Assembly: GCA_041649475.1 (NCBI GenBank)
Contig: JBAZNA010000001.1
Span: 750,594-814,593 of the forward strand
Reading direction: 5' to 3'
Length of the DNA: 64,000 bases
Origin: Patescibacteria group bacterium
GTDB taxonomy: Bacteria > Patescibacteriota > Patescibacteriia > Magasanikbacterales > GWA2-37-8
Part shown: positions 1-64,000 of the stretch, piece by piece
Numbering within the stretch: position 1 is the first letter of the stretch
Layout: each line of letters starts with the position of its first letter
Notes under the pieces: generated by a model
The model's database searches: none
What the model saw: only the letters and a program-made list of their open reading frames with translations
Told to the model about the DNA's origin: nothing
Made by a program: the position numbers and the translations under genes

Positions 1-793
1 AATGGTTTTTATAGCTGTTGTACTTGATCAATTCCGACTGTGTCTGTTTATTTTTAGCCGCCGAAGTGTCTTTTAGCTCTTTTGGTCCGGCCGCGGAGCG
101 ATCATGAAAGGCCACAGCATCCAAAACCGTATAAGATTTCCAGCCGGCCGAAGCCAATCTGAAAGCCAAGTCAACATCTTCTTTATAAGATCCATAAAGG
201 TCATCAAAAATGGTTTCATCCTCATAGGCCACATTTTTTAAGGCCGACCATCTGTACATTGGCAGGGCGCCGGAAACGCCAAACACAGGCATCGCTGACT
301 TTCCAACCGGCGAATCTTGTATATCAACCACCCTCCCATTTTTAAAAACTTTAAGTCCAAGCGAATCAATGTCTTGAGTAAAGGATGTATCCAAACTATT
401 TTTTTCATCAATCGCCGAAAAATTCCATTTTAATAATTTTGGAGTGACCGCTCCCGCGTCTTGATTTTTATCCAAAAATTCGGTTAATTTTGCTATACAA
501 TCAGCCATTAAATACATATCCTGATTTAGAAGCAAAACATAATCTGAATTATTTTTTAAAAATAATTGATTATGAGCGCGGGCAAAACCGATATTTTCTT
601 TACTCTCAAAAAATTCTGTATGAACACTAAAGTTGTTCAATTGATTTTTTATCTGTTCTACAGTGTCATCCTGCGAGCCATTGTCAAAAATGTATAATTG
701 CCAATCTTTATAGGTCTGATTTCGCAGGGATTCAAAAAGAAAGGGCATATACTTTCCCCCGTTCCAGGTGACCAGTTGAATGGAAAGTTTCAT
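1..793 (-). CDS. GT2 glycosyltransferase, rhamnosyltransferase-like. The 5' part is present; the ORF runs off the window start.
   Basis: Hand translation of the reverse complement from an ATG at 793, which shares an ATGA with the upstream stop. It reads MKLSIQLVTWNGGKYMPFLFESLRNQTYKDWQLYIFDNGSQDDTVEQI..., with the GT2 DxD-region signature (VTWNG, DNGSQD). It is absent from the ORF track, probably because no stop falls inside the window. Confidence 0.6.
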   Translation of the reverse strand, partial: MKLSIQLVTWNGGKYMPFLFESLRNQTYKDWQLYIFDNGSQDDTVEQIKNQLNNFSVHTEFFESKENIGFARAHNQLFLKNNSDYVLLLNQDMYLMADCIAKLTEFLDKNQDAGAVTPKLLKWNFSAIDEKNSLDTSFTQDIDSLGLKVFKNGRVVDIQDSPVGKSAMPVFGVSGALPMYRWSALKNVAYEDETIFDDLYGSYKEDVDLAFRLASAGWKSYTVLDAVAFHDRSAAGPKELKDTSAAKNKQTQSELIKYNSYKNH

Positions 794-1563
794 ACGCCCC
801 ATTTTGTAAAATATTTAAGCATGCTGGAAAAAAATTGCCATTGTTTCCAAAGCAAATTTTGCTTCTTAAAGCTTTGCCCGACATAATCAACACAGCTCAC
901 CACCGGTGTGTACATAACCTTAAGACCCATTTTTTTAACTTCCCGACAGGTATCAACGTCTTCAAACCAGAGAAAATACCTTGGATCAAACGCCCAGCCC
1001 AACTTTTCATAAACCTTACGACGCATCAGCATAAAAGACCCGCGCACCGAATCAACCTCCTGTTCCTTGTCCGGATCAAAATTTTTATAGGTATAATGAT
1101 TCAAAACACTTGGAAATATATGCGGAATTTTTAAAAAAATAGCCAGCTGATTCCAAAAATTGGGAAAACGTCTGGGTTTGGCTTTCTCATTAAATTTTCC
1201 ATTTTCATCAACCAATTTACAACTGGCCAAACCCACATCAACATGTTTCCGCATCCAATCAACCATAACATCCAAACTGCCGGCTTGGACGCGCATGTCC
1301 GGGTTTAAAAAAAGCAAAAACTCGCCTTGGGCGAGCTTCGCGGCCTGATTATTGGGATACCCAAAACCGGTGTTTTTACCCTCTTTTATCAGCTTAACTT
1401 CAGAAAAATTTTGTTCAATAATCTCAACCGTTTTGTCAGCAGACCCGTTATCGGCAATAATCTGTTCAAAACTAACATTTTGACAGCCGCTTTTTACGGA
1501 TTTGATTTGTTCAGTTATCAAATCAGCCGCATTCCAAGTAACGGTAATAACACTTAAATCCAT
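790..1563 (-). CDS. Family 2 glycosyltransferase (GT-A fold)
   Basis: MDLSVITVTWNAADLITEQIKSV...IIADNGSADKTVEII is a GT2 N-terminal signature. Its stop overlaps the start of the downstream GT2 as ATGA. Confidence 0.75.
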   Translation of the reverse strand: MDLSVITVTWNAADLITEQIKSVKSGCQNVSFEQIIADNGSADKTVEIIEQNFSEVKLIKEGKNTGFGYPNNQAAKLAQGEFLLFLNPDMRVQAGSLDVMVDWMRKHVDVGLASCKLVDENGKFNEKAKPRRFPNFWNQLAIFLKIPHIFPSVLNHYTYKNFDPDKEQEVDSVRGSFMLMRRKVYEKLGWAFDPRYFLWFEDVDTCREVKKMGLKVMYTPVVSCVDYVGQSFKKQNLLWKQWQFFSSMLKYFTKWGV

Positions 1564-1564: not shown

Positions 1565-2641
1565 CTATTTCTTTAGTTGTGCTTTAAAGAAGTCAACAAA
1601 TGGTATGGCGGTTGGGTCAATCCCCTCAAGCATGGCGCTGTAAAAACTGACATAACTGCTTAACATTAAGACCTCACAGACCTGCCCCAGCGGCTTTTTT
1701 TCAACGCATTTATAATCCAAATAATTAATACCATTTTTTGTTAAAACCTCGCGCGTCACCGTGTATCTTTTTTGCACCCGTTTATCATATAAATCGGACT
1801 CCAAGAGCACAAATCTCAACTCCTGTTTATTTGCTTCCGGATAAAGCATACCCTCCATCAAATGGTGGTTGAGTTCGGGAATTATAAAATAGCCGGCGAA
1901 TCTCTTCGCATTCTCATTCATCTGGTTGGCGGCAATATGGACACTGCCGGACAAATGTTCGGACGCAACATACCAGACCGTCTTATTTAAAAGTTTTATT
2001 GCAAACTGTTTGGCCGGATTACTGGCCTCCGGACTTCCCACACCAAATTCTTTTTCATAAAAAGCGATATGTTTTTTGATGTTATCTATTTCCTTTGCGC
2101 CAATTTTTAGTAACTTCAATTCAGACAACATGGCCATCTGACCAAAAATGGAATAACCCAAACCCATGCGCGGTGAATTTGAGGGATTAAATTCAGTTGG
2201 AAAAACCAAAGCCGGTATTTTGTTTTTCTTGGCCCAAAACGCCAGAGTACCGCCGGCGGAAATTACAATGAGTTTTGCTTTTCTGGCTTTGGCCTCTTGA
2301 GCGGCGCTGATTATCTCTTCTGTGGTTCCGGAATAGCTGGAAGCAATAACCAGTGTATTTTTATTTACATATGCCGGCAAATTGTAATGGCTGACAATTT
2401 CAATTGGCTGTGCCAGTTCTTTTTTAAATAATTCTTTAATCACATGCGCGCCCAAAATTGATCCGCCCATGCCAAGGACCGCAATATTATCAATCTTTTT
2501 ATACGCGGCCGGGATTTTTAATTTTTTGGCCACATTCCAAACCTGTTCTATCTGTTTACTAAAAAGCTCTATACTGCCCAGCATGTTTTTGGAGTCCAGC
2601 TTCTTAATTTCATTTTTGTTATCAAGAATTGTTTGGCTCAT
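1565..2641 (-). CDS. Bifunctional phosphoglucose/phosphomannose isomerase (SIS-domain PGI/PMI family)
   Basis: Two SIS-like segments (IAVLGMGGSILGAHV, LVIASSYSGTTEE); the length and motifs are typical of the archaeal/CPR bifunctional PGI/PMI family. Confidence 0.55.
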   Translation of the reverse strand: MSQTILDNKNEIKKLDSKNMLGSIELFSKQIEQVWNVAKKLKIPAAYKKIDNIAVLGMGGSILGAHVIKELFKKELAQPIEIVSHYNLPAYVNKNTLVIASSYSGTTEEIISAAQEAKARKAKLIVISAGGTLAFWAKKNKIPALVFPTEFNPSNSPRMGLGYSIFGQMAMLSELKLLKIGAKEIDNIKKHIAFYEKEFGVGSPEASNPAKQFAIKLLNKTVWYVASEHLSGSVHIAANQMNENAKRFAGYFIIPELNHHLMEGMLYPEANKQELRFVLLESDLYDKRVQKRYTVTREVLTKNGINYLDYKCVEKKPLGQVCEVLMLSSYVSFYSAMLEGIDPTAIPFVDFFKAQLKK

Positions 2642-2662: not shown

Positions 2663-3499
2663 TTATTGTTTTGCCAACTTATATTTCTCCAAAACATCCC
2701 TCACCGCTTCCTTCACCGGCCGCATCCTAATCCCTAATTTTTCTAAATTTTCTGAAGATAAAATCGTGTTAGACCTGGTTTTTTTGGCCAGCCCTTCGTT
2801 CACCAATTCCTGGGCCGTGATCCAAACATTAGTATGGTTCGGGTCAACAATTTCATTATACATCTCTATAATTTCTTTATGTTTTATTGAACCCGGATTG
2901 GTGACATGAAAAATTCCGGTTGCCCGCTTTTCTAAAAGTTCGCCAAAAACTTTAACCATATCATCAACTATGGTCACGCTGTTTTCTACATCTATCACGC
3001 GCGGGAAAGAAGCCAATTTGGTAATCAAGTTGGCTGGCGAGGGCTGGCTGTCTATCGGCATCCTGATTCGGGCAATACCGACATTAGGCAGGGTGGACAA
3101 AACCAAATCGGCCGCGTATTTACTGCGGGTATAAACTGCCGACGGATTGGCCATATCGCTTTCTTTCCAGCCCTTAGGATCGGAAGAATAGCCATAAAAA
3201 ACACAGCCGGTGCCCATATGTAACAAGTATACGCCCTTTTTCTGACAGGCCTCGGCAATCATAATCGGCAAAGTAGTGTTACCGGCTATGGTTTCAAGCT
3301 GATGGTCTTCACACCAGTCAACATTGGGCTTACCAACTATTCCGGCCGCGTTTAAAACCGAATCCGGTTTATGTTCGTCTAATAAATCCTCAACATCTTT
3401 AACTGAATTTAAAATCTTGCCTGACAAAATCGCCTCCGGCCAGGCCTGCGCGCATCTTGTACCAAGAAAACCATTACCGATAATCAAAACTTTATTCAT
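2663..3499 (-). CDS. NAD(P)-dependent sugar-nucleotide reductase/epimerase, RmlD-like (possible dTDP-4-dehydrorhamnose reductase)
   Basis: MNKVLIIGNGFLG Rossmann N-terminus and a YxxxK catalytic motif (AVYTRSKYAA). Its 278 aa length matches RmlD, and it sits next to rmlB. Confidence 0.5.
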   Translation of the reverse strand: MNKVLIIGNGFLGTRCAQAWPEAILSGKILNSVKDVEDLLDEHKPDSVLNAAGIVGKPNVDWCEDHQLETIAGNTTLPIMIAEACQKKGVYLLHMGTGCVFYGYSSDPKGWKESDMANPSAVYTRSKYAADLVLSTLPNVGIARIRMPIDSQPSPANLITKLASFPRVIDVENSVTIVDDMVKVFGELLEKRATGIFHVTNPGSIKHKEIIEMYNEIVDPNHTNVWITAQELVNEGLAKKTRSNTILSSENLEKLGIRMRPVKEAVRDVLEKYKLAKQ

Positions 3500-3502: not shown

Positions 3503-4510
3503 TTATCGTTCTTTATACTGTTTTTTATAATAATTCAAATATTCTCCGCTTTTTAATTTTTTCCACCAATCCGTGTTATTTTTATACCACTCAATTGTTT
3601 CTTTTAAACCGGCTCTAAAATCCTTAACCGGCTCCCAGCCCAAATCATGAGTTAATTTATCATGGTTTATAGAATACCTGCGGTCGTGCCCGGCCCGATC
3701 TTTCACCGGCTCAATCATTTCCTCGCCCAAGCCCATTTCCAATAAAATTAATTTTGTCAGTTCAACATTCTGTACTTCATGCCCGGAACCGATATTATAT
3801 ATCTCGCCAACGCCGGCCTTGTGCAAAATCAAATCTATGGCCCGGCAATGATCGCTGGTATGAATCCATTCGCGCACATTTTTGCCGTCGCCATAGAGCG
3901 GTACTTTTTTGCCTTCCAACAGATTAGTTATAAACAAAGGAATAATTTTTTCCGGATATTGGTTGGCGCCGTAAAAATTACAGCTATGCGTGACAATAAC
4001 CGGCGTGCCGTAGGTGACAAAGTAAGCCCGGCACAGATGGTCTCCTCCGGCCTTAGACGCCGCATACGGGCTATTAGGCGCGAATGAGGACTCTTCGGTA
4101 AAGCTCCCCTGGTCAACACTGCCAAAAACCTCATCAGTAGAAATCTGAATCATTTTTTGCAAGCCGAATTTTTTAGTCGCTTCCAGCAAATTATATGTTC
4201 CCAAAACATCGGTTCGCAAAAAAGCATCCGGATCCATAATTGACCGGTCAACATGCGTTTCGGCCGCGTAGTTTATAATCACGTCAATCTTGTTTTCAGC
4301 CACGGCTTTTTCCACTTCCGCCGCGTTACAAATATCCCCTTTTACAAATTTATATTGGCCATTTTTTTCCACTTCGCGCAAATTCTCCAAATTGCCGGCA
4401 TAGGTCAGTTTATCAAAATTTACCACAAAATAATCCGGATATTTTTCCAGAATGTATTTTATAAAATGTGAACCCATGAATCCTGCCCCTCCGGTAATTA
4501 AAATCCGCAT
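3503..4510 (-). CDS. rmlB: dTDP-glucose 4,6-dehydratase
   Basis: MRILITGGAGFMGSHFIKYIL...NFDKLTYAGNLENL...YAAETHVDRSI...SPYAASKAGGDHL matches RfbB/RmlB closely along its whole length. Confidence 0.85.
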   Translation of the reverse strand: MRILITGGAGFMGSHFIKYILEKYPDYFVVNFDKLTYAGNLENLREVEKNGQYKFVKGDICNAAEVEKAVAENKIDVIINYAAETHVDRSIMDPDAFLRTDVLGTYNLLEATKKFGLQKMIQISTDEVFGSVDQGSFTEESSFAPNSPYAASKAGGDHLCRAYFVTYGTPVIVTHSCNFYGANQYPEKIIPLFITNLLEGKKVPLYGDGKNVREWIHTSDHCRAIDLILHKAGVGEIYNIGSGHEVQNVELTKLILLEMGLGEEMIEPVKDRAGHDRRYSINHDKLTHDLGWEPVKDFRAGLKETIEWYKNNTDWWKKLKSGEYLNYYKKQYKER

Positions 4511-4513: not shown

Positions 4514-5611
4514 TTATATTTTACTTTGTTTACTAATATTAGCCACAATACCAAAAGCAGTCAAGACCACCAGTAACGCCGAACCGCCATGGCTGATAAA
4601 CGGCAAAGGCACGCCGGTAAGCGGTAAAAGCCCGATTATGGCGCTAATATTCAAATATGACTGCCATAGAAACCATATCATAATACCACTGGCGAGTAAA
4701 CGACCAAACTGGTCAGGCGCCCCTTTGGCGATTTTAAGCCCCCGAAATCCCAAAAACGCGATCAACACCACTAACCCGGCGGAAATAATAAAGCCCATCT
4801 CTTCGGCAATTACCGCAAAAATTGAATCGGCTTGCACCTCGGGCAAGTACTGATATTTTTGCCTAGAATTACCCAGGCCCAAACCAAAAACTCCGCCGGA
4901 GCCGGTAGCCAAATAGGCCTGGTTAATTTGGTACCCAATTCCTTGCGGGTCCAACTCCGGATGCAGAAAAGTGGTCAATCTTTGCACCCGATAAGGACGA
5001 AGCAAAAGCAAACCCGCAAAAATCACCGCCCCGGCCAGACCAATAATGAGCAGGTGCGATTTTTTTACGCCGGCCAGATACAGCATCAAAAATACGGTTA
5101 CAATTAAAATTGACAGGGTACCGACATCCTGGGCCGCTATGATCAAAAAAAATGGAGCCACAATCGCCAAAACCGGTAAAAGCCCGGTCTTCCAATCTTG
5201 CAGGTTCTCTTTGGCTGATAAAAGCATTGCTAAAATTATTACTATCGCCAGCTTGGCAAATTCCGAGGGTTGGAAACTGAAACCCAGAACGTTAATCCAG
5301 CTTCTGGAGCCGTTTATAACCATGCCAATGCCGGGAACAAACACCAGTATTAACAAAACCAAAGCAAAAAAATAGATCAACCAGCTTAATTTTTTCCAAA
5401 TCTGAAAATTCAAATGTCCGGCAATAATAAAAAAGATGATACCCGGTATCAGCCCCAATAAAATTTGTTTTTTAATAAAATAATAAGTATCCCCAAAATT
5501 AGCGTAACCGACCGGGGCGCTGGCCGAAGCCAGCATAATCAGACCGAAAATAACCAAAGTAAAAGTCAGCAACAAAAACAGCTTGTCCGCTTTTTTTTCA
5601 CTGTTTGGCAT
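4514..5611 (-). CDS. ftsW: SEDS-family peptidoglycan glycosyltransferase (FtsW/RodA/SpoVE)
   Basis: About 10 predicted TM segments; the conserved periplasmic-loop motifs read ...AYLATGSGGVFGLGLGNSRQKYQYLPEVQADSIFAVIAEEMGFI. Confidence 0.75.
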   Translation of the reverse strand: MPNSEKKADKLFLLLTFTLVIFGLIMLASASAPVGYANFGDTYYFIKKQILLGLIPGIIFFIIAGHLNFQIWKKLSWLIYFFALVLLILVFVPGIGMVINGSRSWINVLGFSFQPSEFAKLAIVIILAMLLSAKENLQDWKTGLLPVLAIVAPFFLIIAAQDVGTLSILIVTVFLMLYLAGVKKSHLLIIGLAGAVIFAGLLLLRPYRVQRLTTFLHPELDPQGIGYQINQAYLATGSGGVFGLGLGNSRQKYQYLPEVQADSIFAVIAEEMGFIISAGLVVLIAFLGFRGLKIAKGAPDQFGRLLASGIMIWFLWQSYLNISAIIGLLPLTGVPLPFISHGGSALLVVLTAFGIVANISKQSKI

Positions 5612-5614: not shown

Positions 5615-5998
5615 TCAAAGATTTAACCGGACCAACAGCACAACCCCGACCGTTAAAAAGATATGAAAAAACAAAACCCAAAAACTTAACAGCCGGGCTA
5701 AAAATTTATCCGATCCGTAAAATAAGAAAGACAAAAAATAATTTACCAGCAGAACCAACAGGCCGGCCAGGGGCAAATAAAATATTTTCCACCAATCACC
5801 GACCAGATCAACTCCGAAAATAATATTATAATGCAAAAAAATCTGCCCGGAATCGGGATGAATATTGGCAATTAAATCCCACCAGATATATATTTGAATC
5901 AAAATAACGCTGATTATCGGCACCGAAATCCACAGGTCTTTTAAATACAATCTTGGCGAATAAAACATATTAAAGGATATTTGGCTAAGTGTTGACAA
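5615..5998 (-). CDS. Small integral membrane protein of unknown function
   Basis: 127 aa with 3 hydrophobic segments and no recognisable motif. The true start may be an internal Met, because the 5' end overlaps the rpmA promoter. Confidence 0.3.
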   Translation of the reverse strand: MSTLSQISFNMFYSPRLYLKDLWISVPIISVILIQIYIWWDLIANIHPDSGQIFLHYNIIFGVDLVGDWWKIFYLPLAGLLVLLVNYFLSFLFYGSDKFLARLLSFWVLFFHIFLTVGVVLLVRLNL

Positions 5999-6056: not shown

Positions 6057-6329
6057 ATGTCACATAAGAAAGCCGGCGGTTCCACCCGGTTGGGTAGGGA
6101 CTCAAATGCCCAGCGTTTAGGCGTTAAATTACATGATGGTCAGGCCGTAAAAACCGGCATGATTATTGTGCGCCAGCGCGGTACGCGCATAAACCCCGGA
6201 AAGAATGTCAAAAAAGGCACTGACGACACCCTGTTTGCCGTAGCCAATGGCAAAATAAAATTCAGCCAGCACAAAAAGATGAGTTTTAACGGCAGTTTAA
6301 AACCGGCAAAGTTTGTCAGCGTGGTGTAA
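6057..6329 (+). CDS. rpmA: 50S ribosomal protein L27
   Basis: [51 protein letters not shown]...[12 protein letters not shown] closely matches the L27 (rpmA) N-terminal consensus along its length. Confidence 0.9.
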
Positions 6330-7707
6330 AACCCTTCAAAAATGGAGAACCGACAGCCAGAATATCATACCCGGCTGTTTGTAATTTTTGGTAGCTATGA
6401 GAAACCATGCGCCGACCGTCCGCGATTACAAACGGCGGCGGACAAATTTTTGTGATCAGCTGATCCAAGGTGCTAAATTGGGGCCAGTCAGTTAAAATAA
6501 AACAACCGTCCGTATTCGCCAGCGCCTCTTCCTCACTTTCACAATAACTAAAAACCGGATTAGACCCGGCCCAGGATTTAAATTGTTCCACACAAGCCGG
6601 ATCGTAAACTTTAATCTGCCCCGCTCCATCTTTCATCAATTTTTCAATAATCATAATCGCTCCGGAATTACGTATATCGCCGGTATCACGCTTAAACGAA
6701 AGCCCTAAAACGGCTATTTTTTTATCCTTGACCGAAAATCCGGCTTCTTTGATCACGCGATCGTAAAAATGATCCCGCTGGAAACAGTCCCCTTCCAAAA
6801 CTTTTCTCATTTGCTCGGTATCAACCCCCGCTTTTTCAAGTTGGCGGGACAGGGCGGACGTGTCTTTCGCCAGACAACTGCCGCCGGCATAAAAGCTATT
6901 ATAGAATCCATATCCGCCAAGGCGGCGATCGGAGACGATGATTTTCCTAAGCATTTCAAAATTTATTTTTGATAAGGATTCACTTACTCTTCCGACCACG
7001 TTAAAAGTGGTAACTAATCGGGAAAGTAAAATATAATTTGATAAAAGCTTTCCAGCCGCGGCTTCGCGCGTATTAACTTCAATATAATTTACGCCCGGGG
7101 AATAATAAAAACGCTGATAGTAAGCCCTCATTATTTTGAAATCCTCTTCCTTGGAGGCGCCGACCACTACCCTGTCCGGACTGAATGAATCTTTAATTGC
7201 CTGCCCCTCCACCAAAAATTCCGGATTGGAAACAATGCCAAAATTTTTGACCCCGGCTTGCGTCATGTCCGCTGACGCAATTTCGGGCGTGTCTATCGGC
7301 ACTGTGCTTTTGACCACCACCGTGATGTACTTTGTTTGTGCGCCAAGATTTCTCTTAAGTAACGCCTCCATCAGTGCCCGGAGTGCCTCATAAAACATGG
7401 ATAAATCATATTCCCCGTTTTCACTTATCGGAGTCGGCACGCAGATAAAAAGCAAATCCGCATCGTCAAGATGGTGTGTAAACGCCTGATAGTCATCTAA
7501 AAACGTCATCCTCTTTTTGTTCTGGGCCACCAGGCCGCCAAGATCCTGCTCAAATAAAAACTTTTCAATCTTATCTCGGTCAAAGGTGTTAAAAGCGGAA
7601 ATTTTTTCCTTATTCGTGTCATAAACCACAACCTCATGGCCGAACTTGGCCATGACTGCCGCGGAGGCCGCGCCAACGTATCCGGCGCCGATATATAGTG
7701 CCTTCAT
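6316..7707 (-). CDS. Nucleotide-sugar dehydrogenase (UDP-glucose/GDP-mannose 6-dehydrogenase family)
   Basis: [30 protein letters not shown] is the N-terminal NAD-binding fold of the UDP-sugar dehydrogenase family, and the catalytic Cys region reads GGSCLAKD. The start is set at the internal Met at 7707, which makes an ATGA overlap with the upstream stop, rather than the track start at 7758. Confidence 0.75.
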
Positions 7708-8537
7708 AGAGCATTCAAGATTAAAGCGATAGCCAGCCGAAATTTTATCCCCGTCCAAATAAAAAAACTGACAACCGGATTGTATTTTTTATAAAAATGT
7801 TTTTTCCAATAAAGCCACATCGCCTCATAAAAATTCGCAATGGATTTTGTTTTGCGTTTTTTCGTGCTGGACCCGCCCAAATGCACTATCTTGGCATCGG
7901 CAACGTAAACCGTCTTCCAACCTTTGTCCAGAATTCTTTTGCAAAAATCCAAATCCTCGCCGTACATAAAAAACGTTTCGTCCAACCCGCCGATATCTAC
8001 CCAAACCTTGCGCCGAAACATCATGGCCGCGCCGGAAAGGGCTTCGGTTTCTCCGCTAATGTCCGGACTGTCGTTCATTCTTTTATAGGCGGACAATTTT
8101 CCCAAGCCGAACAAATGCATAAACGAGTTTAACGGGTTGGGCAGATTCCGACGGCAAGCGTGTTGAAAAGTTCCGTCAGAATTAAGCAAACGCGGTCCGA
8201 CCATCATCACGTCCGGATGCGTGTCCAAATAATTCACCAGTTTACCAATTGCGCCATCCTGGACAATCACATCGCTGTTTAGGAGCATCAGATAATCACC
8301 CGAGGCCAGAGCCAGCGCCTGGTTGTTGGCTTTGGCAAATCCCAAATTATCGTCATTTTCAATTAAGCGCACTTGCGGGTATTCCTTTTTTAGACGGGCC
8401 ACGCTGTCATCCGCAGAATGATTATCAACCACAAAAATTTCAAAATCAAGCCCTGGGGTCTGCTTATAAACCGAAGCCACCGACTGTATGGTCAACTCGG
8501 CCGTGTTCCAGCTGACTATGATTACTGACAACTTCAT
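7704..8537 (-). CDS. Family 2 glycosyltransferase
   Basis: MKLSVIIVSWNTAELTIQSVASV...FVVDNHSADDS is the GT2 signature. Confidence 0.75.
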   Translation of the reverse strand: MKLSVIIVSWNTAELTIQSVASVYKQTPGLDFEIFVVDNHSADDSVARLKKEYPQVRLIENDDNLGFAKANNQALALASGDYLMLLNSDVIVQDGAIGKLVNYLDTHPDVMMVGPRLLNSDGTFQHACRRNLPNPLNSFMHLFGLGKLSAYKRMNDSPDISGETEALSGAAMMFRRKVWVDIGGLDETFFMYGEDLDFCKRILDKGWKTVYVADAKIVHLGGSSTKKRKTKSIANFYEAMWLYWKKHFYKKYNPVVSFFIWTGIKFRLAIALILNAL

Positions 8538-8548: not shown

Positions 8549-9100
8549 TTATTTGACCAAGGTCACGGAAACATTACAGGCCGGAAATAATCTTGACCAG
8601 CCGGTAGCTTCATAAATCATCTGGGCGCGCGGCCCCAGATTGACCAGCCACTCTAAAACCGGACTCAAAAAAAACACGGGTGAATCGTGCTCAAATATGA
8701 TCTTGGCCTCGGATAATTTTTCAAAAACAAAATCAAAATAATAAGGGCGGCTATCATGGTGGTATGAATTCTTAACAAAAAAATTAAAGGTGTTAATGGA
8801 GAACATTCTCTTATGAGTTGGATCAACGAAATTGAACCGGGAAGTGAAATGCGGAACGCGAATACGCAGCACTCCTCCTTTTTTTAGAATCCGATACAAA
8901 TCACGTAAAACTGGCATGTAATCTACATGCTCTAAAACGTCCTGACATAAAATTTCATCAAATTGTTCATCCGAAAAAGGGAGCGGGAGTTGGTTAACAT
9001 CATGAACAATATCAACACCCGGCAGGGCGGAAATATCTAAATTAACCCATCCGGGCAATATATTGGTTCCACATCCTAAATTTAATTTATTGACTGACAT
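8549..9100 (-). CDS. Class I SAM-dependent methyltransferase
   Basis: LNLGCGTNILPGWVNLD...CQDVLEHV (SAM-binding motif I and post-I), Methyltransf_11/23-like. Confidence 0.6.
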   Translation of the reverse strand: MSVNKLNLGCGTNILPGWVNLDISALPGVDIVHDVNQLPLPFSDEQFDEILCQDVLEHVDYMPVLRDLYRILKKGGVLRIRVPHFTSRFNFVDPTHKRMFSINTFNFFVKNSYHHDSRPYYFDFVFEKLSEAKIIFEHDSPVFFLSPVLEWLVNLGPRAQMIYEATGWSRLFPACNVSVTLVK

Positions 9101-21111: not shown

Positions 21112-21125
21112 AATAAAAAATTATT

Positions 21126-21815: not shown

Positions 21816-21821
21816 AGGCCT

Positions 21822-48033: not shown

Positions 48034-48408
48034 TCAAATTTTGAAGACAAACCTTTTGTTTAAAAAGAAGGCGACAAAGGCCATCGGCAAAATCAGAATC
48101 GCCCCGCCAATATAAGCGCTTATTTGTGCCAAACTGAACAAATACAACCCCAAAACATTTAAAATATAGGTCACTCCGTAAACTCCAAAAAACTTGAAAA
48201 TAAGCCAATTGTTATGGGAATTGAAAACAATGACGCCGGTAGTTTTAAAATTAAACAAGATTCCCAATATTGTGCCCAGGAACGCCGCCAGCGCGTAGTG
48301 CAGGCCGACAAACAATAATAAAGCAAAAACCCCGTAGCCAAACAGAGTATTAATCCCCCCCACGATTAAGAACCGAATGAATTGATTTTTAAACAATTCT
48401 TGCCACAT
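48034..48408 (-). CDS. gtrA: GtrA-family membrane protein (polyprenyl-P-sugar flippase accessory)
   Basis: FIRFLIVGGINTLFGYGVFALL; 4 TM segments in 124 aa. Confidence 0.7.
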   Translation of the reverse strand: MWQELFKNQFIRFLIVGGINTLFGYGVFALLLFVGLHYALAAFLGTILGILFNFKTTGVIVFNSHNNWLIFKFFGVYGVTYILNVLGLYLFSLAQISAYIGGAILILPMAFVAFFLNKRFVFKI

Positions 48409-56124: not shown

Positions 56125-57255
56125 TCAATTTAAGATTAAAACGGCCATCCCATTGTACTTTTCATGTATGATTTTAGCAACCTCATCAGCATAACTGCCG
56201 GCCATAATAATAATCGCCTCAACCGGATCAGAATTTAATTTTTCCGGAGCCACAATTGGTATATGCGTGGCCGGGGTGAATTTGCCCTGTTTAAAAGACG
56301 CGGAGTCAACAACATATTTAATTTTTCCTTCCAGATTCAATAAAGCCAGAGTCGCAAACGCCTGATGCCCGGCTCCCCAAACCGCTACCTTGCCGGGCGC
56401 AAACCGATTAATATAGTCCTCAATCTCTTTTTTAAGTTTTGCCTGTTTGTCGGAAAATAAAGCCAGGTCGGTTTTTCTTCTTTTTTTAACGACAGCGGAA
56501 ATTATATAATCATGCCAAACCTCTTTGCACTCCAAAACCTCAAAACCATTTATTTGCAAGGTTGTTTTCAGGGTTTCTTTGGTAAAATAAAACAGATGGT
56601 CGCGCATGAATTCTGAAAAAAGATTGTCCCGCAAAATCATGTCAAAGTTCGGCACCTCCACTATGCCAACCGCGCCGTCAGCCAAATTATTACTTATTCC
56701 GGCAAGCATTAGATTAAGATTTGGCAGATGTTCCAGCCAGCTTAAAACAAAAAAAGCGTCAAAGGGCGAATTGTCTATTTTGTAATCTTCTGTTTCTACA
56801 AATCCTTTACTAACTTTTAAACCATTTTTTAAGCACTGCGCCGCCGAGTCATCACCGTATTCCAAACCATAGGCATCGGCACCGGTTTGAGACATTATGG
56901 TCAAATACTCTCCCCTGCCACAGCCAATTTCAATGATTTTTTTACCGGCGAGAGAATATTTTTTGACAAAATCTTTAAACTGGCCGGATCGAAACTCTTT
57001 CATCTCCGGTGAAATCCCGGCCGCGCGTATGACTTCTCTATAATAAGAAACTGGTTCGCCAACCAGTTGCACTAGACCGCAACCCGCGCACTGATAAATT
57101 TCCAAATCCATCCCTTTATCCCGCGCGATTGTTGCCTCATCCGGTAAATGCTGGGCAACCATTGGCATGTTCTCATATTTTAACAGGGGTTCCGCCAACA
57201 ATGCCTTACCGCAAACCCGGCAATTATTTTTTGATAAAATGCTGGTACCATGCAT
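56125..57255 (-). CDS. NDP-hexose C-methyltransferase (TylCIII/Methyltransf_13-14 family)
   Basis: N-terminal Zn-binding CRVCGK...YQCAGCGLVQL, then IIEIGCGRGEYL (motif I), and a C-methyltransferase C-terminal domain. Confidence 0.65.
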   Translation of the reverse strand: MHGTSILSKNNCRVCGKALLAEPLLKYENMPMVAQHLPDEATIARDKGMDLEIYQCAGCGLVQLVGEPVSYYREVIRAAGISPEMKEFRSGQFKDFVKKYSLAGKKIIEIGCGRGEYLTIMSQTGADAYGLEYGDDSAAQCLKNGLKVSKGFVETEDYKIDNSPFDAFFVLSWLEHLPNLNLMLAGISNNLADGAVGIVEVPNFDMILRDNLFSEFMRDHLFYFTKETLKTTLQINGFEVLECKEVWHDYIISAVVKKRRKTDLALFSDKQAKLKKEIEDYINRFAPGKVAVWGAGHQAFATLALLNLEGKIKYVVDSASFKQGKFTPATHIPIVAPEKLNSDPVEAIIIMAGSYADEVAKIIHEKYNGMAVLILN

Positions 57256-58186
57256 AGGTTTCTTTTACTGCCGACTCAAAATCAGAATGTGGCGACCATC
57301 CCAAAATTCTGTCCGCTTTGGCAAAATTCAAACTTTGGCCCGGTATCTCATTTTTCTGATTATTTAAAATCTTATAATTTATTTTTACATCAATAACTTT
57401 AGAAATCTTTTCAATGAGATCCAGCACGGAAACATTTAAACCGGAACTGAAGTTAAAGGCCTCGCCTTGTGTTTTATCAATATTTTCCGCCAAAGACAGA
57501 TATCCATCCACAACATCTTTCACATAAATATAATCCCGTTTAAACGTGCCGTCACTGCGCAAATCCAAAACATTGCCGGTTATTGCGGCCATCATGATTC
57601 CCGGAACAATCCTGTCCATATTTAAATCCCCGGGGCCGAAAATATTACCGCAACGGCTGATAGCCACCGGCAATTTATAGGTTCTGTAGTAAGTGCGCGC
57701 GACTAAATCAGTGCAGGACTTGGAAACATCATAGGGATGATCGCCGGACAAAGCAAAATTCTCATCGGCATTCTGGCAATTTTTTCCGTAGGCCTTATCG
57801 CTGGAGGCCACTACCACGGCCTTGATATACGGTGAGTGTCGGGCCGCTTCCAAAACATTAACCGTTCCCATTATATTTGAAGCAAAGGTCTCGTATGGAT
57901 TTATAAAAGCGGCAGTGACAATCGGCTGGGCCCCGATATGAAAAACATGGCTGATTTCATACTTTGTCAAAATTTCAAACATCCGGTCTTTATTTTTAAG
58001 ATCGCCGTTTACACGAACTACTTTAGAACCAAAATTATTTGTTTCAAAATATGAATTCGGATCACAGCTGCGACTCAAACAAACTATTTGACGCGGTTGT
58101 AGCTTTAAAAGTTCCTCAACCAGATGAGAACCGACCAACCCGGTGGCGCCGGTTACAAAAATATTTTTTCCGGTGAGCGTGCTCAT
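57224..58186 (-). CDS. NAD-dependent epimerase/dehydratase (CDP-sugar reductase/epimerase candidate)
   Basis: KNIFVTGATGLVGSHLVEELL and HPYDVSKSCTDLV (YxxxK). Confidence 0.7.
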   Translation of the reverse strand: MSTLTGKNIFVTGATGLVGSHLVEELLKLQPRQIVCLSRSCDPNSYFETNNFGSKVVRVNGDLKNKDRMFEILTKYEISHVFHIGAQPIVTAAFINPYETFASNIMGTVNVLEAARHSPYIKAVVVASSDKAYGKNCQNADENFALSGDHPYDVSKSCTDLVARTYYRTYKLPVAISRCGNIFGPGDLNMDRIVPGIMMAAITGNVLDLRSDGTFKRDYIYVKDVVDGYLSLAENIDKTQGEAFNFSSGLNVSVLDLIEKISKVIDVKINYKILNNQKNEIPGQSLNFAKADRILGWSPHSDFESAVKETYAWYQHFIKK

Positions 58187-63880: not shown

Positions 63881-64000
63881 ATGTTTTTTAATTTAATTTA
63901 GTAAGATTCAATTAACCATACGCCTTGGCTATTTTTAATGAAGGTTATAAAATTAGTAATTTTTTGACCGTTAGACGTGCCCGCGTAAACATAAGTGGCT

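What the first reader, a model, noticed from the sequence alone, without database searches (positions are those of the whole stretch)
1..64000. A single ~58-kb codirectional, translationally coupled array encoding at least five nucleotide-sugar pathways and six methyltransferases
53 of 55 genes are on the minus strand, and more than 20 gene junctions are 4-8-bp ATGA-type overlaps or gaps of 15 bp or less. dTDP-, GDP- (heptose and 6-deoxyhexose), CDP- and UDP-sugar chemistry, a ulosonic acid synthase, a carbamoyltransferase, three radical-SAM enzymes, six SAM methyltransferases including one FkbM type, about 14 GTs, Wzx, GtrAB and GT-C enzymes are all packed together. This argues for one very elaborate, heavily methylated and carbamoylated surface glycan, an S-layer or glycoprotein glycan, as the main product. 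For a genome that otherwise looks streamlined, this is a disproportionate investment and possibly a key determinant of host or phage interaction.
Basis: partly seen in the sequence, partly recalled or inferred. Interest (0 to 1): 0.6.

Follow-up and report, generated by a model that had tools for sequence, protein, structure and literature searches.

The report
Mosaic surface-glycan super-locus in Magasanikbacteria
The window is almost entirely one very large, tightly packed set of sugar-making and sugar-attaching genes from an ultra-small, uncultured Magasanikbacteria bacterium. The locus sits at the same chromosomal position in three examined relatives but swaps its internal gene cassettes, so it looks like a native, diversifying cell-surface glycan locus, not one operon and not a recently imported island.

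Summary
I count 58 genes, 56 on the minus strand. Of 53 same-strand junctions, 41 overlap or have gaps of 15 bp or less, and 10 are ATGA overlaps.

The packing is only modestly above background. Both flanks share the orientation, and related CPR loci have a median of 85% co-directional genes and 60-65% tight junctions.

The organism is a Candidatus Magasanikbacteria (CPR). The glycan array runs about 65-67 kb, reaching 4.8 kb beyond the window's left end, which is about 7% of a 963-kb contig.

In four genomes a Wzy_C-TPR gene lies 44-56 kb upstream of RodA in the same orientation. The ends are conserved and the interior cassettes differ. GC and tetranucleotide content are flat, and there is no tRNA, IS element or long repeat, so I see no sign of recent acquisition.

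Seven of the eight gaps above 35 bp carry minus-strand promoter-like sites, which suggests about ten transcription units. No initiating phosphoglycosyltransferase is present.

The most interesting sub-module is a recurrent cassette: CDP-sugar genes, a 3-C-methyltransferase, NeuB-cupin, a HAD phosphatase and a YerE-like ThDP carboligase. It may build a long acyl-branched deoxysugar.

"One glycan" and "S-layer" remain untested.

The parts
2..802 (-). GT2 glycosyltransferase; its 3' end runs off the window
   Evidence: Pfam PF00535. It is 329 aa in the full contig. Conserved at 52-57% in L002-L012.
790..1563 (-). GT2 glycosyltransferase, part of the conserved core
   Evidence: PF00535. 63-73% identical in relatives.
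1565..2641 (-). Bifunctional phosphoglucose/phosphomannose isomerase-like protein
   Evidence: PF10432. NF006425 scores 266 bits, below cutoff.
2663..3499 (-). RmlD-like SDR reductase; not an RmlD equivalog
   Evidence: TIGR01214 scores 83 against a cutoff of 224. About 80% identical in relatives.
3503..4510 (-). dTDP-glucose 4,6-dehydratase (RmlB)
   Evidence: TIGR01181 scores 443 against a cutoff of 365.
4514..5611 (-). RodA/FtsW (SEDS protein); housekeeping gene and downstream anchor of the locus
   Evidence: PF01098 scores 327 bits. Best genome hits are Magasanikbacteria at 61-69%.
5615..5968 (-). Small membrane protein of unknown function, conserved next to RodA
   Evidence: No family hit. 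TM segments predicted. 57-69% identical in the closest relatives, L002-L012.
6057..6329 (+). Ribosomal protein L27 (rpmA); a plus-strand exception
   Evidence: PF01016. Promoter-like site at 5992-6020 on the plus strand, 11 of 12.
6316..7707 (-). Nucleotide-sugar 6-dehydrogenase (UDP-glucose dehydrogenase family)
   Evidence: TIGR03026 scores 259 against a cutoff of 190.
7704..8537 (-). GT2 glycosyltransferase
   Evidence: PF00535.
8549..9100 (-). SAM methyltransferase (Methyltransf_11)
   Evidence: Promoter-like site at 9134-9107, 11 of 12.
9108..10091 (-). GT2 with C-terminal TM helices
10117..11292 (+). GT4 glycosyltransferase; an inverted gene that is also inverted in relatives
   Evidence: PF00534. 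Inverted orthologues in L002, L088 and L089.
11276..12295 (-). SDR nucleotide-sugar epimerase/dehydratase
   Evidence: PF01370. 81% identical in L088.
12273..13595 (-). Nucleotide-sugar dehydrogenase (UDP-ManNAc/UDP-Glc dehydrogenase-like)
   Evidence: TIGR03026 scores 323 bits. Promoter-like site at 13634-13605, 10 of 12.
13635..14489 (-). SAM methyltransferase (Methyltransf_23)
14486..16687 (-). Fusion of a GT2 (polyprenyl-phosphate-sugar synthase type) with a PMT_2 GT-C transferase
   Evidence: PF00535, PF13231 and PF02366. 11 hydrophobic segments. Split into two genes in L089.
16701..17582 (-). FkbM-family methyltransferase
   Evidence: TIGR01444 scores 116 against a cutoff of 38.
17609..18775 (-). 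GT4 glycosyltransferase
18803..19909 (-). SDR NDP-hexose 4,6-dehydratase-like protein
   Evidence: CDP_4_6_dhtase scores 149, below cutoff.
19912..21111 (-). PMT-family GT-C membrane glycosyltransferase
   Evidence: PF02366 scores 30.3 against a cutoff of 22.7. 5 hydrophobic segments. Fused to its GT2 partner in L089.
21126..21815 (-). Short GT2 (AglJ / dolichyl-phosphate-hexose synthase-like); partner of the PMT-like gene
21816..22009 (-). Largest intergenic gap, with a terminator-like hairpin (21923-21909) and a promoter-like site (22006-21978)
22010..23191 (-). Membrane-anchored SGNH/GDSL esterase or acyltransferase-like protein
   Evidence: PF00657. N-terminal TM. Promoter-like site at 23244-23215, 11 of 12 with TG.
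23245..25032 (-). NodU/CmcH-type O-carbamoyltransferase
   Evidence: PF02543 at 308 bits and PF16861 at 227 bits.
25034..25267 (-). 77-aa membrane protein, weakly SxtJ-like; a conserved partner of the carbamoyltransferase
   Evidence: Immediately upstream of NodU in most of the 41 loci.
25279..26223 (-). Ornithine carbamoyltransferase; a lineage-specific insertion in the array
   Evidence: TIGR00658 scores 285 against a cutoff of 281. Absent beside NodU in all 41 related loci and in the collinear L128.
26234..27082 (-). GT2 glycosyltransferase
27079..27819 (-). Transaldolase / fructose-6-phosphate aldolase family; possible sedoheptulose-7-phosphate supply
   Evidence: PF00923. Below equivalog cutoffs.
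27865..28593 (-). Sugar-1-phosphate nucleotidylyltransferase (HddC-like)
   Evidence: NF049965 scores 97 against a cutoff of 300.
28581..29150 (-). HAD-IIIA phosphatase (GmhB-like)
   Evidence: NF006506 scores 154 against a cutoff of 178. The TIGR01656 domain scores 137 against 84.
29163..30089 (-). SDR epimerase, absent from the collinear relative L128.
   Evidence: Promoter-like site at 30158-30129, 9 of 12 with TG.
30167..30781 (-). SIS-domain sedoheptulose-7-phosphate isomerase-like protein (GmhA-like)
   Evidence: 95-98 bits, below cutoff.
30787..31794 (-). GHMP kinase (HddA-like heptose-7-phosphate kinase)
   Evidence: 163 against a cutoff of 600.
31791..33149 (-). GT4 glycosyltransferase
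33166..35370 (-). B12-binding radical-SAM enzyme fused to a class I SAM methyltransferase
   Evidence: PF02310, PF04055 and PF08241.
35367..36149 (-). GT2 glycosyltransferase
36146..37009 (-). GT2 glycosyltransferase
37013..38314 (-). Wzx-type (MOP superfamily) flippase
   Evidence: PF01943 scores 81 bits. Polytopic.
38316..39095 (-). 259-aa membrane-anchored protein of unknown function, linked to Wzx
   Evidence: No family hit. Adjacent to Wzx in L095 too.
39092..40051 (-). GDP-L-fucose synthase-like SDR
   Evidence: NF047922 scores 449 against a cutoff of 500.
40048..42000 (-). B12-dependent radical-SAM C-methyltransferase (KedN5-like)
   Evidence: NF033712 scores 287 against a cutoff of 700.
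41997..43160 (-). DegT-family sugar aminotransferase or dehydratase
   Evidence: PF01041.
43172..44140 (-). SAM methyltransferase (Methyltransf_23)
44150..45169 (-). GDP-mannose 4,6-dehydratase
   Evidence: TIGR01472 scores 562 against a cutoff of 415.
45166..46677 (-). Polytopic membrane protein with about 10 TM segments; probable GT-C glycosyltransferase
   Evidence: The 52% orthologue in L090 carries PF26314 MptA_B. No direct Pfam hit here.
46679..47983 (-). RfbH/DdhC (E1) CDP-6-deoxy-4-hexulose 3-dehydrase
   Evidence: NF011936 scores 693 against a cutoff of 423. Promoter-like site at 48037-48009.
48034..48408 (-). GtrA-family small membrane protein
   Evidence: PF04138.
48411..49355 (-). 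GtrB/ArnC/PgfS-like polyprenyl-phosphate glycosyltransferase
   Evidence: PF00535. 2 C-terminal TM helices. PgfS scores 183 bits and ArnC 115 bits, both below cutoff.
49360..49827 (-). NUDIX hydrolase; travels with the ThDP enzyme
   Evidence: Beside the ThDP enzyme in L085 and L133.
49832..51505 (-). YerE-like ThDP-dependent carboligase
   Evidence: Best PDB hit is JanthE (8rph) at 357 bits, against 230 for acetolactate synthase. ALS equivalog TIGR00118 scores 330 against a cutoff of 538.
51509..52432 (-). Cof-type HAD phosphatase (Hydrolase_3)
   Evidence: Follows NeuB-cupin in L085 and L086.
52434..55025 (-). Read-through fusion of an SDR (residues 1-345), a NeuB-family synthase and a cupin domain. 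The ancestral NeuB ATG is at 53972.
   Evidence: Among the 120 best hits listed, this is the only fused 863-aa form.
55029..56120 (-). Radical-SAM/SPASM-type enzyme
   Evidence: PF04055. SPASM domain noted.
56125..57255 (-). NDP-sugar C-methyltransferase (TcaB9/TylC3 type)
   Evidence: PF08421 and PF08484. PDB hits to TcaB9 and mycarose 3-C-methyltransferase.
57224..58186 (-). CDP-glucose 4,6-dehydratase-like SDR
   Evidence: TIGR02622 scores 197 against a cutoff of 278.
58208..58996 (-). Glucose-1-phosphate cytidylyltransferase-like protein
   Evidence: TIGR02623 scores 278 against a cutoff of 300.
59006..61051 (-). Wzy_C-domain (O-antigen ligase / polymerase / O-oligosaccharyltransferase family) membrane protein with a C-terminal TPR; conserved upstream anchor of the locus
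   Evidence: PF04932 scores 76 bits, plus TPR. Orthologues at 51-65%.
61090..61118 (-). Promoter-like site TTGACA-17-TAAAAT upstream of Wzy_C
   Evidence: 11 of 12. An equivalent element is present upstream of Wzy_C in L086, L090 and L091.
61136..63880 (-). 914-aa secreted or membrane-anchored protein with a lamin-tail domain; not conserved in relatives
   Evidence: PF00932. N-terminal hydrophobic segment. No orthologue in the sampled loci.

Best explanation
The window is the greater part of a native cell-surface glycan biosynthesis super-locus of a Candidatus Magasanikbacteria (CPR/Patescibacteria) genome. The glycan array spans about 65-67 kb. The locus occupies a fixed chromosomal slot. A Wzy_C-TPR membrane protein marks the upstream end. 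A conserved block marks the downstream end: L27, a small membrane protein, RodA, RmlB, an RmlD-like SDR, PGI/PMI, several GT2 genes and RmlA. Between these ends lies a mosaic of exchangeable cassettes.

Inferred working model:
1. Cytoplasmic cassettes make activated sugars. These are dTDP-6-deoxyhexose (RmlA, RmlB, RmlD-like), UDP-uronic acids, GDP-heptose (GmhA-, HddA-, GmhB- and HddC-like, with transaldolase possibly supplying sedoheptulose-7-phosphate), GDP-6-deoxyhexose (GMD, Fcl-like, aminotransferase), and a CDP-activated deoxy/branched sugar.
2. SAM and B12-radical-SAM methyltransferases, a NodU-type carbamoyltransferase and an SGNH enzyme decorate these sugars or the assembled glycan.
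3. GT2 and GT4 enzymes assemble an oligosaccharide on a polyprenyl carrier, and Wzx flips it across the membrane.
4. The Wzy_C protein then polymerises it or transfers it to an acceptor, either protein or cell wall.
5. At least three polyprenyl-phosphate-sugar synthase/GT-C pairs add further single sugars outside the membrane. The pairs are GtrB/GtrA with the neighbouring 10-TM protein, GT2_e with the PMT-like protein, and the fused GT2-PMT_2.

Transcription is probably from about ten promoters, not one. Co-directionality reflects genome-wide strand bias. Cassette turnover between relatives suggests diversifying selection on the surface glycan.
For: Shown:
- Gene families.
- Organism.
- Full extent of the array and the same-strand non-glycan flanks. 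The independent contig is 100% identical to the window over the overlaps.
- The Wzy_C to RodA distance is 56, 49, 45 and 44 kb in four genomes, always in the same orientation.
- Conserved ends: L002-L012 are collinear with window 1-16.7 kb, and L086 is collinear with 48-61 kb.
- Mosaic interior. L128 is collinear with 17.6-30.8 kb but lacks OTCase and SDR_c. L088 replaces the OTCase-NodU-SGNH block with a different module. L095 joins the Wzx block directly to NodU. L090 and L091 have other content after Wzy_C.
- Reciprocal gene fusion and fission of the two GT2/GT-C pairs between the window and L089 supports their functional pairing.
- Promoter-like sites lie in 7 of the 8 gaps above 35 bp, and there is one terminator-like hairpin. 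A promoter-like element lies upstream of Wzy_C in all four genomes.
- GC (0.40-0.45) and tetranucleotide profile are flat over 83 kb including the flanks.
- No tRNA, Rfam hit or long repeat.

Inferred: the order of assembly steps, the identity of the sugars, and selection as the cause of the mosaicism.
Against: - No initiating phosphoglycosyltransferase (Bac_transf or MraY/WecA-like) and no chain-length regulator was found. In the window this rests on my Pfam scans. In the flanks it rests on the precomputed Pfam annotation. The Wzx route is therefore incomplete within the locus.
- Most pathway assignments are below NCBIfam equivalog cutoffs.
- RmlC and the E3 reductase partner of RfbH are missing.
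- The Wzy_C protein cannot be assigned to ligase, polymerase or O-oligosaccharyltransferase.
- Promoter and terminator matches are consensus scans. Window-wide they exceed shuffled controls by only about 1.5 to 3.5 SD, and AT-rich gaps inflate them.
- Comparative loci are 13-22 kb fragments, so the interiors of the relatives' loci were only partly seen.
- Nothing shows how many distinct glycoconjugates are made.
Confidence: 0.75

Rival explanations
1. One reading: one translationally coupled operon of about 58 kb that encodes a single, very elaborate methylated and carbamoylated glycan (S-layer or glycoprotein glycan).
For: 41 of 53 junctions are 15 bp or less, and 10 are ATGA overlaps. Window 30-61 kb is 100% co-directional with about 88% tight junctions. 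There is only one Wzx gene and one Wzy_C gene. Almost no convincing intrinsic terminators lie in the gaps.
Against: Promoter-like sites occupy nearly every gap above 35 bp, including 11-of-12 matches upstream of Wzy_C and SGNH, and there is a terminator-like hairpin in the 194-bp gap. Two genes are inverted, and RodA and L27 lie inside the array. The blocks are inherited and exchanged independently in relatives. Three separate lipid-linked monosaccharide/GT-C systems suggest several acceptors or decoration steps.
Confidence: 0.12
2. Several unrelated envelope systems that are only neighbours. These would be a RodA-linked cell-wall polysaccharide or rhamnose-type module, a protein O-glycosylation module (polyprenyl-phosphate-sugar synthase plus PMT-type GT-C), and a Wzx/Wzy_C heteropolysaccharide, with no shared product.
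For: The RodA-proximal block is conserved across the family while the rest varies. There are independent promoter-like sites. The GT2/GT-C pairs are self-contained, as shown by their fusions.
Against: In all four genomes examined the whole Wzy_C to RodA interval is filled with glycan genes in one orientation. That argues for selection to keep them together. Several sugar-supply cassettes have no dedicated transferase or flippase of their own.
Confidence: 0.1
3. A recently acquired genomic island, or a secondary-metabolite (glycosylated antibiotic) gene cluster, rather than a surface-glycan locus.
For: Several enzymes have their closest characterised relatives in antibiotic deoxysugar pathways: the TcaB9-type C-methyltransferase, the KedN5-type B12 radical-SAM enzyme and the NodU/CmcH carbamoyltransferase. 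One radical-SAM gene is 73% identical to a gene on an Omnitrophica MAG contig. T4SS-like genes lie about 4 kb or more upstream of the LTD gene.
Against: GC and tetranucleotide profile are flat across the locus and its flanks. There is no tRNA, integrase, IS element or flanking repeat. The position is conserved in relatives. There are no scaffold genes (PKS, NRPS or aminocyclitol). Wzx, Wzy_C, GtrAB and GT-C enzymes are present.
Confidence: 0.03

Closest known systems
O-antigen / capsule (Wzx/Wzy-dependent) polysaccharide loci of Gram-negative and Gram-positive bacteria
   Same: The locus has a fixed chromosomal position with conserved flanks and a hypervariable cassette-like interior. It has nucleotide-sugar genes, glycosyltransferases, Wzx and a Wzy_C-domain protein, all co-oriented.
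   Different: It is about 3-5 times larger than typical loci of this kind (from my own knowledge). No initiating phosphoglycosyltransferase or Wzz is found in the locus. The host is a CPR bacterium, which is thought to lack an outer membrane and LPS, so a WaaL-type ligation to lipid A-core is unlikely. Housekeeping genes RodA and L27 lie inside the array.
S-layer glycosylation (slg) clusters of Geobacillus, Paenibacillus and Aneurinibacillus, and archaeal agl clusters (named from my own knowledge of the field)
   Same: They combine rml genes, a GDP-D-glycero-D-manno-heptose set (GmhA, HddA, GmhB, HddC), methyltransferases, glycosyltransferases and a Wzy_C-domain O-oligosaccharyltransferase. 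GT2_e and the GT2 domain of the fusion hit AglJ-type models.
   Different: No S-layer gene was identified, and the adjacent LTD protein is not conserved. All heptose genes are below equivalog cutoffs. Membership was not testable.
Gtr / ArnC-ArnT / Ppm1-Pmt / PgfS-type two-step extracytoplasmic glycosylation (polyprenyl-phosphate-sugar synthase plus GT-C transferase)
   Same: GtrA and a GtrB-like GT2 with two C-terminal TM helices are present. Two further GT2/PMT-family pairs are present, and they are fused reciprocally in different genomes.
   Different: There are three such systems in one locus. The acceptors are unknown. The GT-C partner of GtrB is only inferred (the 10-TM protein at 45166-46677).
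YerE/ErwE/MMAR_2332-type acyl-branched sugar gene clusters (yersiniose, erwiniose, caryophyllose; PMC9306805)
   Same: Genes for a CDP-4-keto-(3)6-deoxyhexose (cytidylyltransferase-like, 4,6-dehydratase-like, RfbH/E1) sit next to a ThDP enzyme. That enzyme is much closer to the YerE-like JanthE than to acetolactate synthases. An SDR reductase candidate, a SAM C-methyltransferase and a C-C bond-forming enzyme that yields an alpha-keto acid are also present.
   Different: The alpha-keto-acid enzyme is a NeuB-family PEP-dependent synthase fused to a cupin, followed by a HAD phosphatase. In the described clusters it is a pyruvate aldolase. No E3 reductase is present. Extra radical-SAM and NUDIX genes travel with the cassette. 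No biochemical evidence exists.
Sialic / pseudaminic / legionaminic acid (nonulosonic acid) pathways
   Same: A NeuB-family TIM-barrel synthase domain is present (PF03102, 147 bits).
   Different: NeuB and PseI equivalog scores are 146 and 133 against cutoffs of 400 and 340. The best structural relative is the uncharacterised 3g8r (395 bits), not true NeuB (88 bits). My Pfam scans of the window proteins returned no CMP-NulO synthetase family and no precursor enzymes.

Membership tests
Wzx/Wzy-dependent polysaccharide locus | Wzx (MOP) flippase | tested here: met
   PF01943 scores 81 bits against a cutoff of 28, and PF13440 also hits. The protein is polytopic.
Wzx/Wzy-dependent polysaccharide locus | Wzy polymerase | tested here: inconclusive
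   One Wzy_C-domain protein is present (PF04932, 76 bits). The domain is shared by polymerases, WaaL ligases and O-oligosaccharyltransferases, and sequence cannot tell them apart.
Wzx/Wzy-dependent polysaccharide locus | Initiating phosphoglycosyltransferase (Bac_transf or WecA/MraY-like) in the locus | tested here: not met
   No such Pfam family appears in any of the 58 window proteins. None appears in the precomputed Pfam annotation of the flanks. It may be encoded elsewhere in the genome.
Wzx/Wzy-dependent polysaccharide locus | Chain-length regulator (Wzz) | tested here: not met
   No hit.
Single operon | One promoter and no internal transcription starts or terminators | not testable with these tools
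   Consensus scans place promoter-like sites in 7 of the 8 gaps above 35 bp and one terminator-like hairpin. Transcript data are needed.
Horizontally acquired genomic island | Deviant composition, tRNA or integrase at a border, flanking repeats, absence from relatives | tested here: not met
   GC and tetranucleotide profile are flat over 83 kb. There are no tRNAs, no long repeats and no integrase or transposase among the Pfam hits. The position is conserved in four genomes.
dTDP-L-rhamnose pathway (RmlABCD) | All four enzymes present | tested here: not met
   RmlA_long is met, just outside the window (325 against 320). RmlB is met (443 against 365). The RmlD-like protein scores 83 against 224. 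No RmlC (dTDP_sugar_isom) is found in the window or flanks. A dTDP-6-deoxyhexose other than L-rhamnose is possible.
GDP-D-glycero-alpha-D-manno-heptose pathway (GmhA, HddA, GmhB, HddC) | Four enzymes at equivalog level | tested here: inconclusive
   All four families are present and adjacent at 27.9-31.8 kb. Each is below its equivalog cutoff: 95-98 against 209-276, 163 against 600, 154 against 178, and 97 against 300.
GDP-L-fucose pathway | GMD plus GDP-L-fucose synthase | tested here: inconclusive
   GMD is met (562 against 415). The Fcl-like protein scores 449 against 500, just below cutoff.
CDP-3,6-dideoxyhexose pathway (DdhA-D) | Cytidylyltransferase, CDP-glucose 4,6-dehydratase, E1 (RfbH) and E3 reductase | tested here: not met
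   E1 is met (693 against 423). DdhA-like scores 278 against 300 and DdhB-like 197 against 278. No E3-type flavodoxin-reductase or 2Fe-2S protein is in the window.
YerE-type acyl-branched sugar cluster | YerE-like ThDP carboligase next to CDP-ketosugar genes, a reductase and an alpha-keto-acid-forming aldolase | tested here: inconclusive
   The ThDP enzyme's best solved relative is the YerE-like JanthE (357 bits, against 230 for ALS; PMC12188165). CDP genes are present. No class II pyruvate aldolase is present, and a NeuB-cupin synthase occupies that place. Activity was not testable.
Nonulosonic acid pathway | NeuB/PseI/LegI equivalog plus CMP-NulO synthetase | tested here: not met
   NeuB scores 146 against 400 and PseI 133 against 340. 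No CMP-NulO synthetase family was returned by the Pfam scans.
Gtr-type lipid-linked monosaccharide glycosylation | GtrA, GtrB and a GT-C transferase | tested here: inconclusive
   GtrA is met (PF04138). The GtrB-like GT2 has two C-terminal TM helices. The GT-C partner is inferred only: the 10-TM protein, whose L090 orthologue carries PF26314. It has no direct Pfam hit.

The most novel reading that the evidence does not exclude
The Wzy_C-proximal cassette may be an uncharacterised pathway for a long, polyhydroxylated acyl-branched deoxysugar. The cassette comprises a cytidylyltransferase-like gene, a 4,6-dehydratase-like gene, a 3-C-methyltransferase, a radical-SAM enzyme, SDR/NeuB-cupin, a HAD phosphatase, a YerE-like ThDP carboligase, NUDIX, GtrB/GtrA and RfbH. 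It recurs in Magasanikbacteria and Microgenomates MAGs, in an Omnitrophica MAG, and partly (without the ThDP enzyme) in a Wolfebacteria MAG.

In this reading a NeuB-family PEP-dependent synthase, with a cupin isomerase domain and a HAD phosphatase, makes a 3-deoxy-2-ulosonic (alpha-keto) acid. The ThDP enzyme then decarboxylates it and ligates it to a CDP-4-keto-6-deoxy(3,6-dideoxy)hexose. This would be a new donor-supply variant of the YerE/ErwE/caryophyllose scheme. Swapping the donor module (NeuB-cupin in this genome, a KPHMT-like gene in L090) would diversify the surface glycan.
Probability: 0.3. Interest if true: 0.65.

Novelty: new variant of a known kind. Interest (0 to 1): 0.45.

Why it matters
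CPR/Patescibacteria are mostly uncultured, and many are thought to live attached to host cells. Their surfaces are almost unknown chemically. This genome appears to devote about 7% of a roughly 1-Mb chromosome to one glycan locus. Three examined relatives keep a locus at the same position while exchanging its cassettes. Together these points make surface glycans a plausible major and rapidly diversifying interface with hosts and phages, in the way O-antigen and capsule loci are in well-studied bacteria.

The locus also offers concrete enzyme targets: a YerE-like carboligase paired with a NeuB-cupin synthase, B12-radical-SAM sugar methyltransferases, and fused polyprenyl-phosphate-sugar synthase/GT-C proteins. 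If the branched-sugar reading is right, it extends the known biosynthetic logic of acyl-branched sugars and predicts an unusual sugar on CPR cells.

Tried and rejected
1. Horizontal acquisition. GC and tetranucleotide profiles over 83 kb are flat. Searches for tRNAs, Rfam families and repeats were empty. Rejected.

2. OTCase as a conserved carbamoyl-phosphate supplier for the NodU carbamoyltransferase. None of 41 NodU-related metagenome loci, nor the collinear L128, has an OTCase beside NodU. The adjacency is lineage-specific and the idea stays speculative.

3. A sialic or pseudaminic acid pathway. The NeuB domain is far below equivalog cutoffs. Its best structural relative is the uncharacterised 3g8r. 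No CMP-synthetase family was returned. Rejected.

4. The ThDP enzyme as biosynthetic acetolactate synthase. It scores 330 against a cutoff of 538, and it is closer to the YerE-like JanthE. Rejected.

5. Shine-Dalgarno-based start refinement. Most genes have AT-rich upstream regions with no SD motif. Starts were instead refined by overlap logic and by independent gene calls.

6. Relaxed Pfam scans of the unknown proteins. They gave nothing except a weak SxtJ hit for the 77-aa protein.

7. Literature searches for described CPR or Magasanikbacteria glycan loci. Nothing specific was found.

8. Structure prediction, fold search and the representative-protein search were not used. None would have changed the verdict on the locus-level claim.

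Full report
OBSERVATION

A greedy ORF model was refined with start-codon context and with independent gene calls on other assemblies of the same organism. It gives 58 genes, 56 on the minus strand, with 98.4% coding density. The two plus-strand genes are rpmA/L27 (6057-6329) and a GT4 glycosyltransferase (10117-11292).

Of 53 minus-minus junctions, 41 overlap or have gaps of 15 bp or less, 14 overlap, and 10 are exact ATGA overlaps.

The packing is only modestly above background. The same naive gene caller was run on 73 loci of 15 kb or more, mostly from related CPR genomes. It gave a median dominant-strand fraction of 0.85 (IQR 0.65-0.91) and a median tight-junction fraction of 0.60. The window scores 0.96 and 0.75. 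Only window 30-61 kb is extreme, at 100% and about 88%.

The roughly 10 kb upstream of the array has 10 of 11 called genes in the same orientation. These include T4SS-like genes, a ComF-like gene and a hydrolase. The downstream two-component genes are also co-oriented. GC skew has one sign throughout the window. Co-directionality is thus a property of the replichore or the genome, not of the cluster.

ORGANISM AND EXTENT

RodA/FtsW finds its best matches in Candidatus Magasanikbacteria MAGs, at 61-69% identity. The same sequence exists on an ENA contig of 633,560 bp, which is identical to the window over 24 kb of overlap. It also exists on an NCBI MAG contig of 963,177 bp.

Using the ENA contig, the glycan genes continue 4.8 kb past the window's left end. 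They comprise the rest of the GT2 gene cut by the window's end, two more GT2 genes, and a long-form RmlA that passes its equivalog cutoff (325 against 320). A response regulator and histidine kinase follow. The array therefore spans about 65 kb from Wzy_C, or about 67 kb from the LTD gene. That is roughly 7% of the 963-kb contig.

INVENTORY

- dTDP: RmlB passes its equivalog cutoff. The RmlD-like SDR does not, and no RmlC is found.
- UDP: two nucleotide-sugar dehydrogenases plus SDRs.
- GDP-heptose: GmhA-, HddA-, GmhB- and HddC-like genes lie adjacent, next to a transaldolase. All four are below equivalog cutoffs.
- GDP-6-deoxyhexose: GMD passes. The Fcl-like protein scores 449 against 500.
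- CDP: RfbH/E1 passes strongly. The cytidylyltransferase scores 278 against 300 and the dehydratase 197 against 278. No E3 reductase is found.
- Tailoring enzymes: a NodU-type carbamoyltransferase, an SGNH protein, six SAM methyltransferase domains and three radical-SAM enzymes, two of them B12-type and one KedN5-like.
- Assembly and export: about 14 glycosyltransferases, Wzx, GtrA and GtrB, two PMT-family GT-C proteins, a 10-TM probable GT-C and a Wzy_C-TPR protein.

No initiating phosphoglycosyltransferase, Wzz, CMP-sugar synthetase, integrase or transposase was found. There are no tRNAs, Rfam matches or long repeats.

TRANSCRIPTION UNITS

Twelve same-strand junctions exceed 15 bp. There are eight gaps above 35 bp. 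Seven of them are same-strand gaps, and each holds a minus-strand sigma-70-like site:
- 61118-61090 (11 of 12);
- 23244-23215 (11 of 12, with TG);
- 13634-13605 (10 of 12);
- 48037-48009 (9 of 12, with TG);
- 27856-27827 (9 of 12);
- 22006-21978 (9 of 12).

The eighth gap is the divergent one upstream of L27. It holds a plus-strand site at 5992-6020 (11 of 12). The 194-bp gap also has a terminator-like hairpin at 21923-21909.

Window-wide, the promoter-like counts exceed shuffled controls by about 1.5 to 3.5 SD, and AT-rich gaps favour such matches, so this is suggestive rather than conclusive. However, a TTGAC(A/T)-N17-TAnAAT element lies upstream of Wzy_C in all four genomes compared. In two of them the upstream gene is on the opposite strand, so Wzy_C must start a transcription unit there. 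I infer about ten units.

Most genes have AT-rich leaders with no Shine-Dalgarno motif.

COMPARATIVE GENOMICS

The locus is positionally conserved. Wzy_C-TPR lies upstream of RodA in the same orientation at these distances:
- about 56 kb in the window;
- about 49 kb in JGI 3300045502 (L086, L089);
- about 45 kb in GCA_964395135 (L090, L088);
- about 44 kb in GCA_016182085 (L091, L011).

The ends are conserved. Window 1-16.7 kb is collinear with L002-L012. Window 48-61 kb is collinear with L086.

The interior is mosaic:
- L128 is collinear with 17.6-30.8 kb at 62-81% amino-acid identity, but lacks OTCase and SDR_c.
- L088 keeps the TAL-GT2 genes and the run from GT2_e through the PMT-like gene, GT4, GT2-PMT2, a methyltransferase, UGDH and an SDR. 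It replaces the OTCase-NodU-SGNH block with an inverted B12 radical-SAM gene, a cupin, a C-methyltransferase/SDR fusion and a GFO_IDH gene.
- L095 joins the Wzx block directly to NodU.
- L090 and L091 have other genes after Wzy_C. L091 includes an opposite-strand MBOAT block.

GC (0.40-0.45) and tetranucleotide distance are flat across the locus and its flanks. This is the pattern of a native, recombining surface-polysaccharide locus, not of a recent island.

ASSEMBLY LOGIC (INFERRED)

One Wzx and one Wzy_C protein indicate a flipped, lipid-linked oligosaccharide. It would be polymerised or transferred outside the membrane. In a CPR cell, which is thought to lack LPS, the acceptor is more likely protein or cell wall than lipid A-core.

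Separately, there are three polyprenyl-phosphate-sugar synthase/GT-C systems:
- GtrB and GtrA, with the nearby 10-TM protein whose L090 orthologue carries the MptA_B GT-C family;
- GT2_e with the PMT-like gene;
- the fused GT2-PMT_2.

The window fuses the third pair and splits the second. L089 does the reverse. This is Rosetta-stone evidence that each GT2 works with its neighbouring GT-C.

THE CDP / ThDP / NeuB CASSETTE

The 863-aa SDR-NeuB-cupin protein is a read-through fusion. The SDR stop codon is lost and the ancestral NeuB ATG is retained at 53972. In L085, L086 and L087 the two parts are adjacent, separate genes. Among the 120 best database hits listed, the window protein is the only fused form.

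The NeuB domain's best solved relative is the uncharacterised 3g8r (395 bits). True NeuB scores about 88 bits.

The neighbouring ThDP enzyme is far closer to JanthE (8rph, 357 bits) than to acetolactate synthases (230 bits). JanthE is described as a YerE-like carboligase (PMC12188165).

The C-methyltransferase matches TcaB9 and mycarose 3-C-methyltransferases.

A ThDP enzyme lies within 6 kb of NeuB-cupin in five of six loci examined, including an Omnitrophica MAG. In L090 a different ThDP enzyme sits beside a ketopantoate-hydroxymethyltransferase-like gene.

The published scheme for acyl-branched sugars (PMC9306805) combines three elements: genes for a CDP-4-keto-3,6-dideoxyhexose, a YerE-like enzyme, and an enzyme that makes a functionalised alpha-keto acid. 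By analogy I propose, as an inference with probability about 0.3, that NeuB-cupin plus the HAD phosphatase supply a 3-deoxy-2-ulosonic acid donor for the ThDP enzyme. The product would be a long-branched deoxysugar.

COMPARISON AND VERDICT

The locus works like an O-antigen, capsule or S-layer-glycan locus with Gtr/Pmt-type add-on systems. Membership of any one named system is not established. The initiating transferase, Wzz, RmlC, E3 and CMP-synthetase were each tested for and not found.

The single-operon, single-product, island and S-layer elements are either contradicted or untested.

It is best described as a new variant of a known kind of system. It is of moderate interest, with one sub-module that could be more novel.

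Noticed in passing
window 25279-26223: An ornithine carbamoyltransferase (just above its equivalog cutoff) is wedged with 10-11 bp gaps between a GT2 gene and the SxtJ-like/NodU carbamoyltransferase pair. None of 41 NodU-related loci, nor the collinear L128, has it there. It might supply carbamoyl phosphate from citrulline, but that is speculative.
   Followed up: partly
window 25034-25267: A 77-aa membrane protein, weakly SxtJ-like, lies immediately upstream of the NodU-type carbamoyltransferase here and in most of the 41 related metagenome loci. It appears to be a conserved accessory gene of unknown role.
   Followed up: partly
window 52434-55025 (junction near 53972): The SDR and NeuB-cupin genes are separate in L085, L086 and L087. 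Here they are joined by loss of the SDR stop codon, and the old NeuB ATG is kept in frame. Among the 120 best database hits listed, this is the only fused 863-aa form.
   Followed up: yes
window 14486-16687 and 19912-21815; L089 7417-11554: There is reciprocal fusion and fission of two GT2/GT-C pairs. The window has GT2-PMT_2 fused and GT2_e/PMT-like split. The JGI relative has the opposite arrangement.
   Followed up: yes
window 10091-10117: The start codons of the divergent GT2 (minus strand) and GT4 (plus strand) genes are only 25 bp apart, so their promoters must lie inside each other's coding regions. The GT4 gene is inverted in the same way in L002, L088 and L089.
   Followed up: partly
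window 55029-56120; L133: The radical-SAM/SPASM gene of the cassette is 73% identical to a gene on an Omnitrophica MAG contig, which is higher than to CPR relatives (61%). That contig also carries NeuB-cupin, ThDP, NUDIX, C-methyltransferase and B12 radical-SAM genes. Either the cassette has moved between phyla or the contig is mis-binned.
   Followed up: no
whole window (gene starts): Most genes have AT-rich upstream regions with no Shine-Dalgarno motif. Translation initiation here may be largely SD-independent, which bears on how 'translational coupling' would work.
   Followed up: no
L082 1-5400 (about 4.6-10 kb beyond the window's right end): A run of type IV secretion/conjugation-like genes (TrbL, PrgI, TraC-like, VirB4-type ATPase) lies in the same orientation as the glycan array. 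A ComF-like gene and a hydrolase lie between that run and the array.
   Followed up: no
window 6057-6329: rpmA (L27) stands alone on the opposite strand, without rplU, and overlaps the 3' end of a sugar dehydrogenase gene convergently by 14 bp. The same isolated arrangement next to RodA is conserved in relatives.
   Followed up: no
window 61136-63880: A 914-aa secreted or membrane-anchored protein with a lamin-tail domain sits directly upstream of Wzy_C. It has no orthologue in the sampled relatives; L086 has an unrelated 1261-aa protein at that position. It is a possible variable surface protein or glycosylation target.
   Followed up: partly
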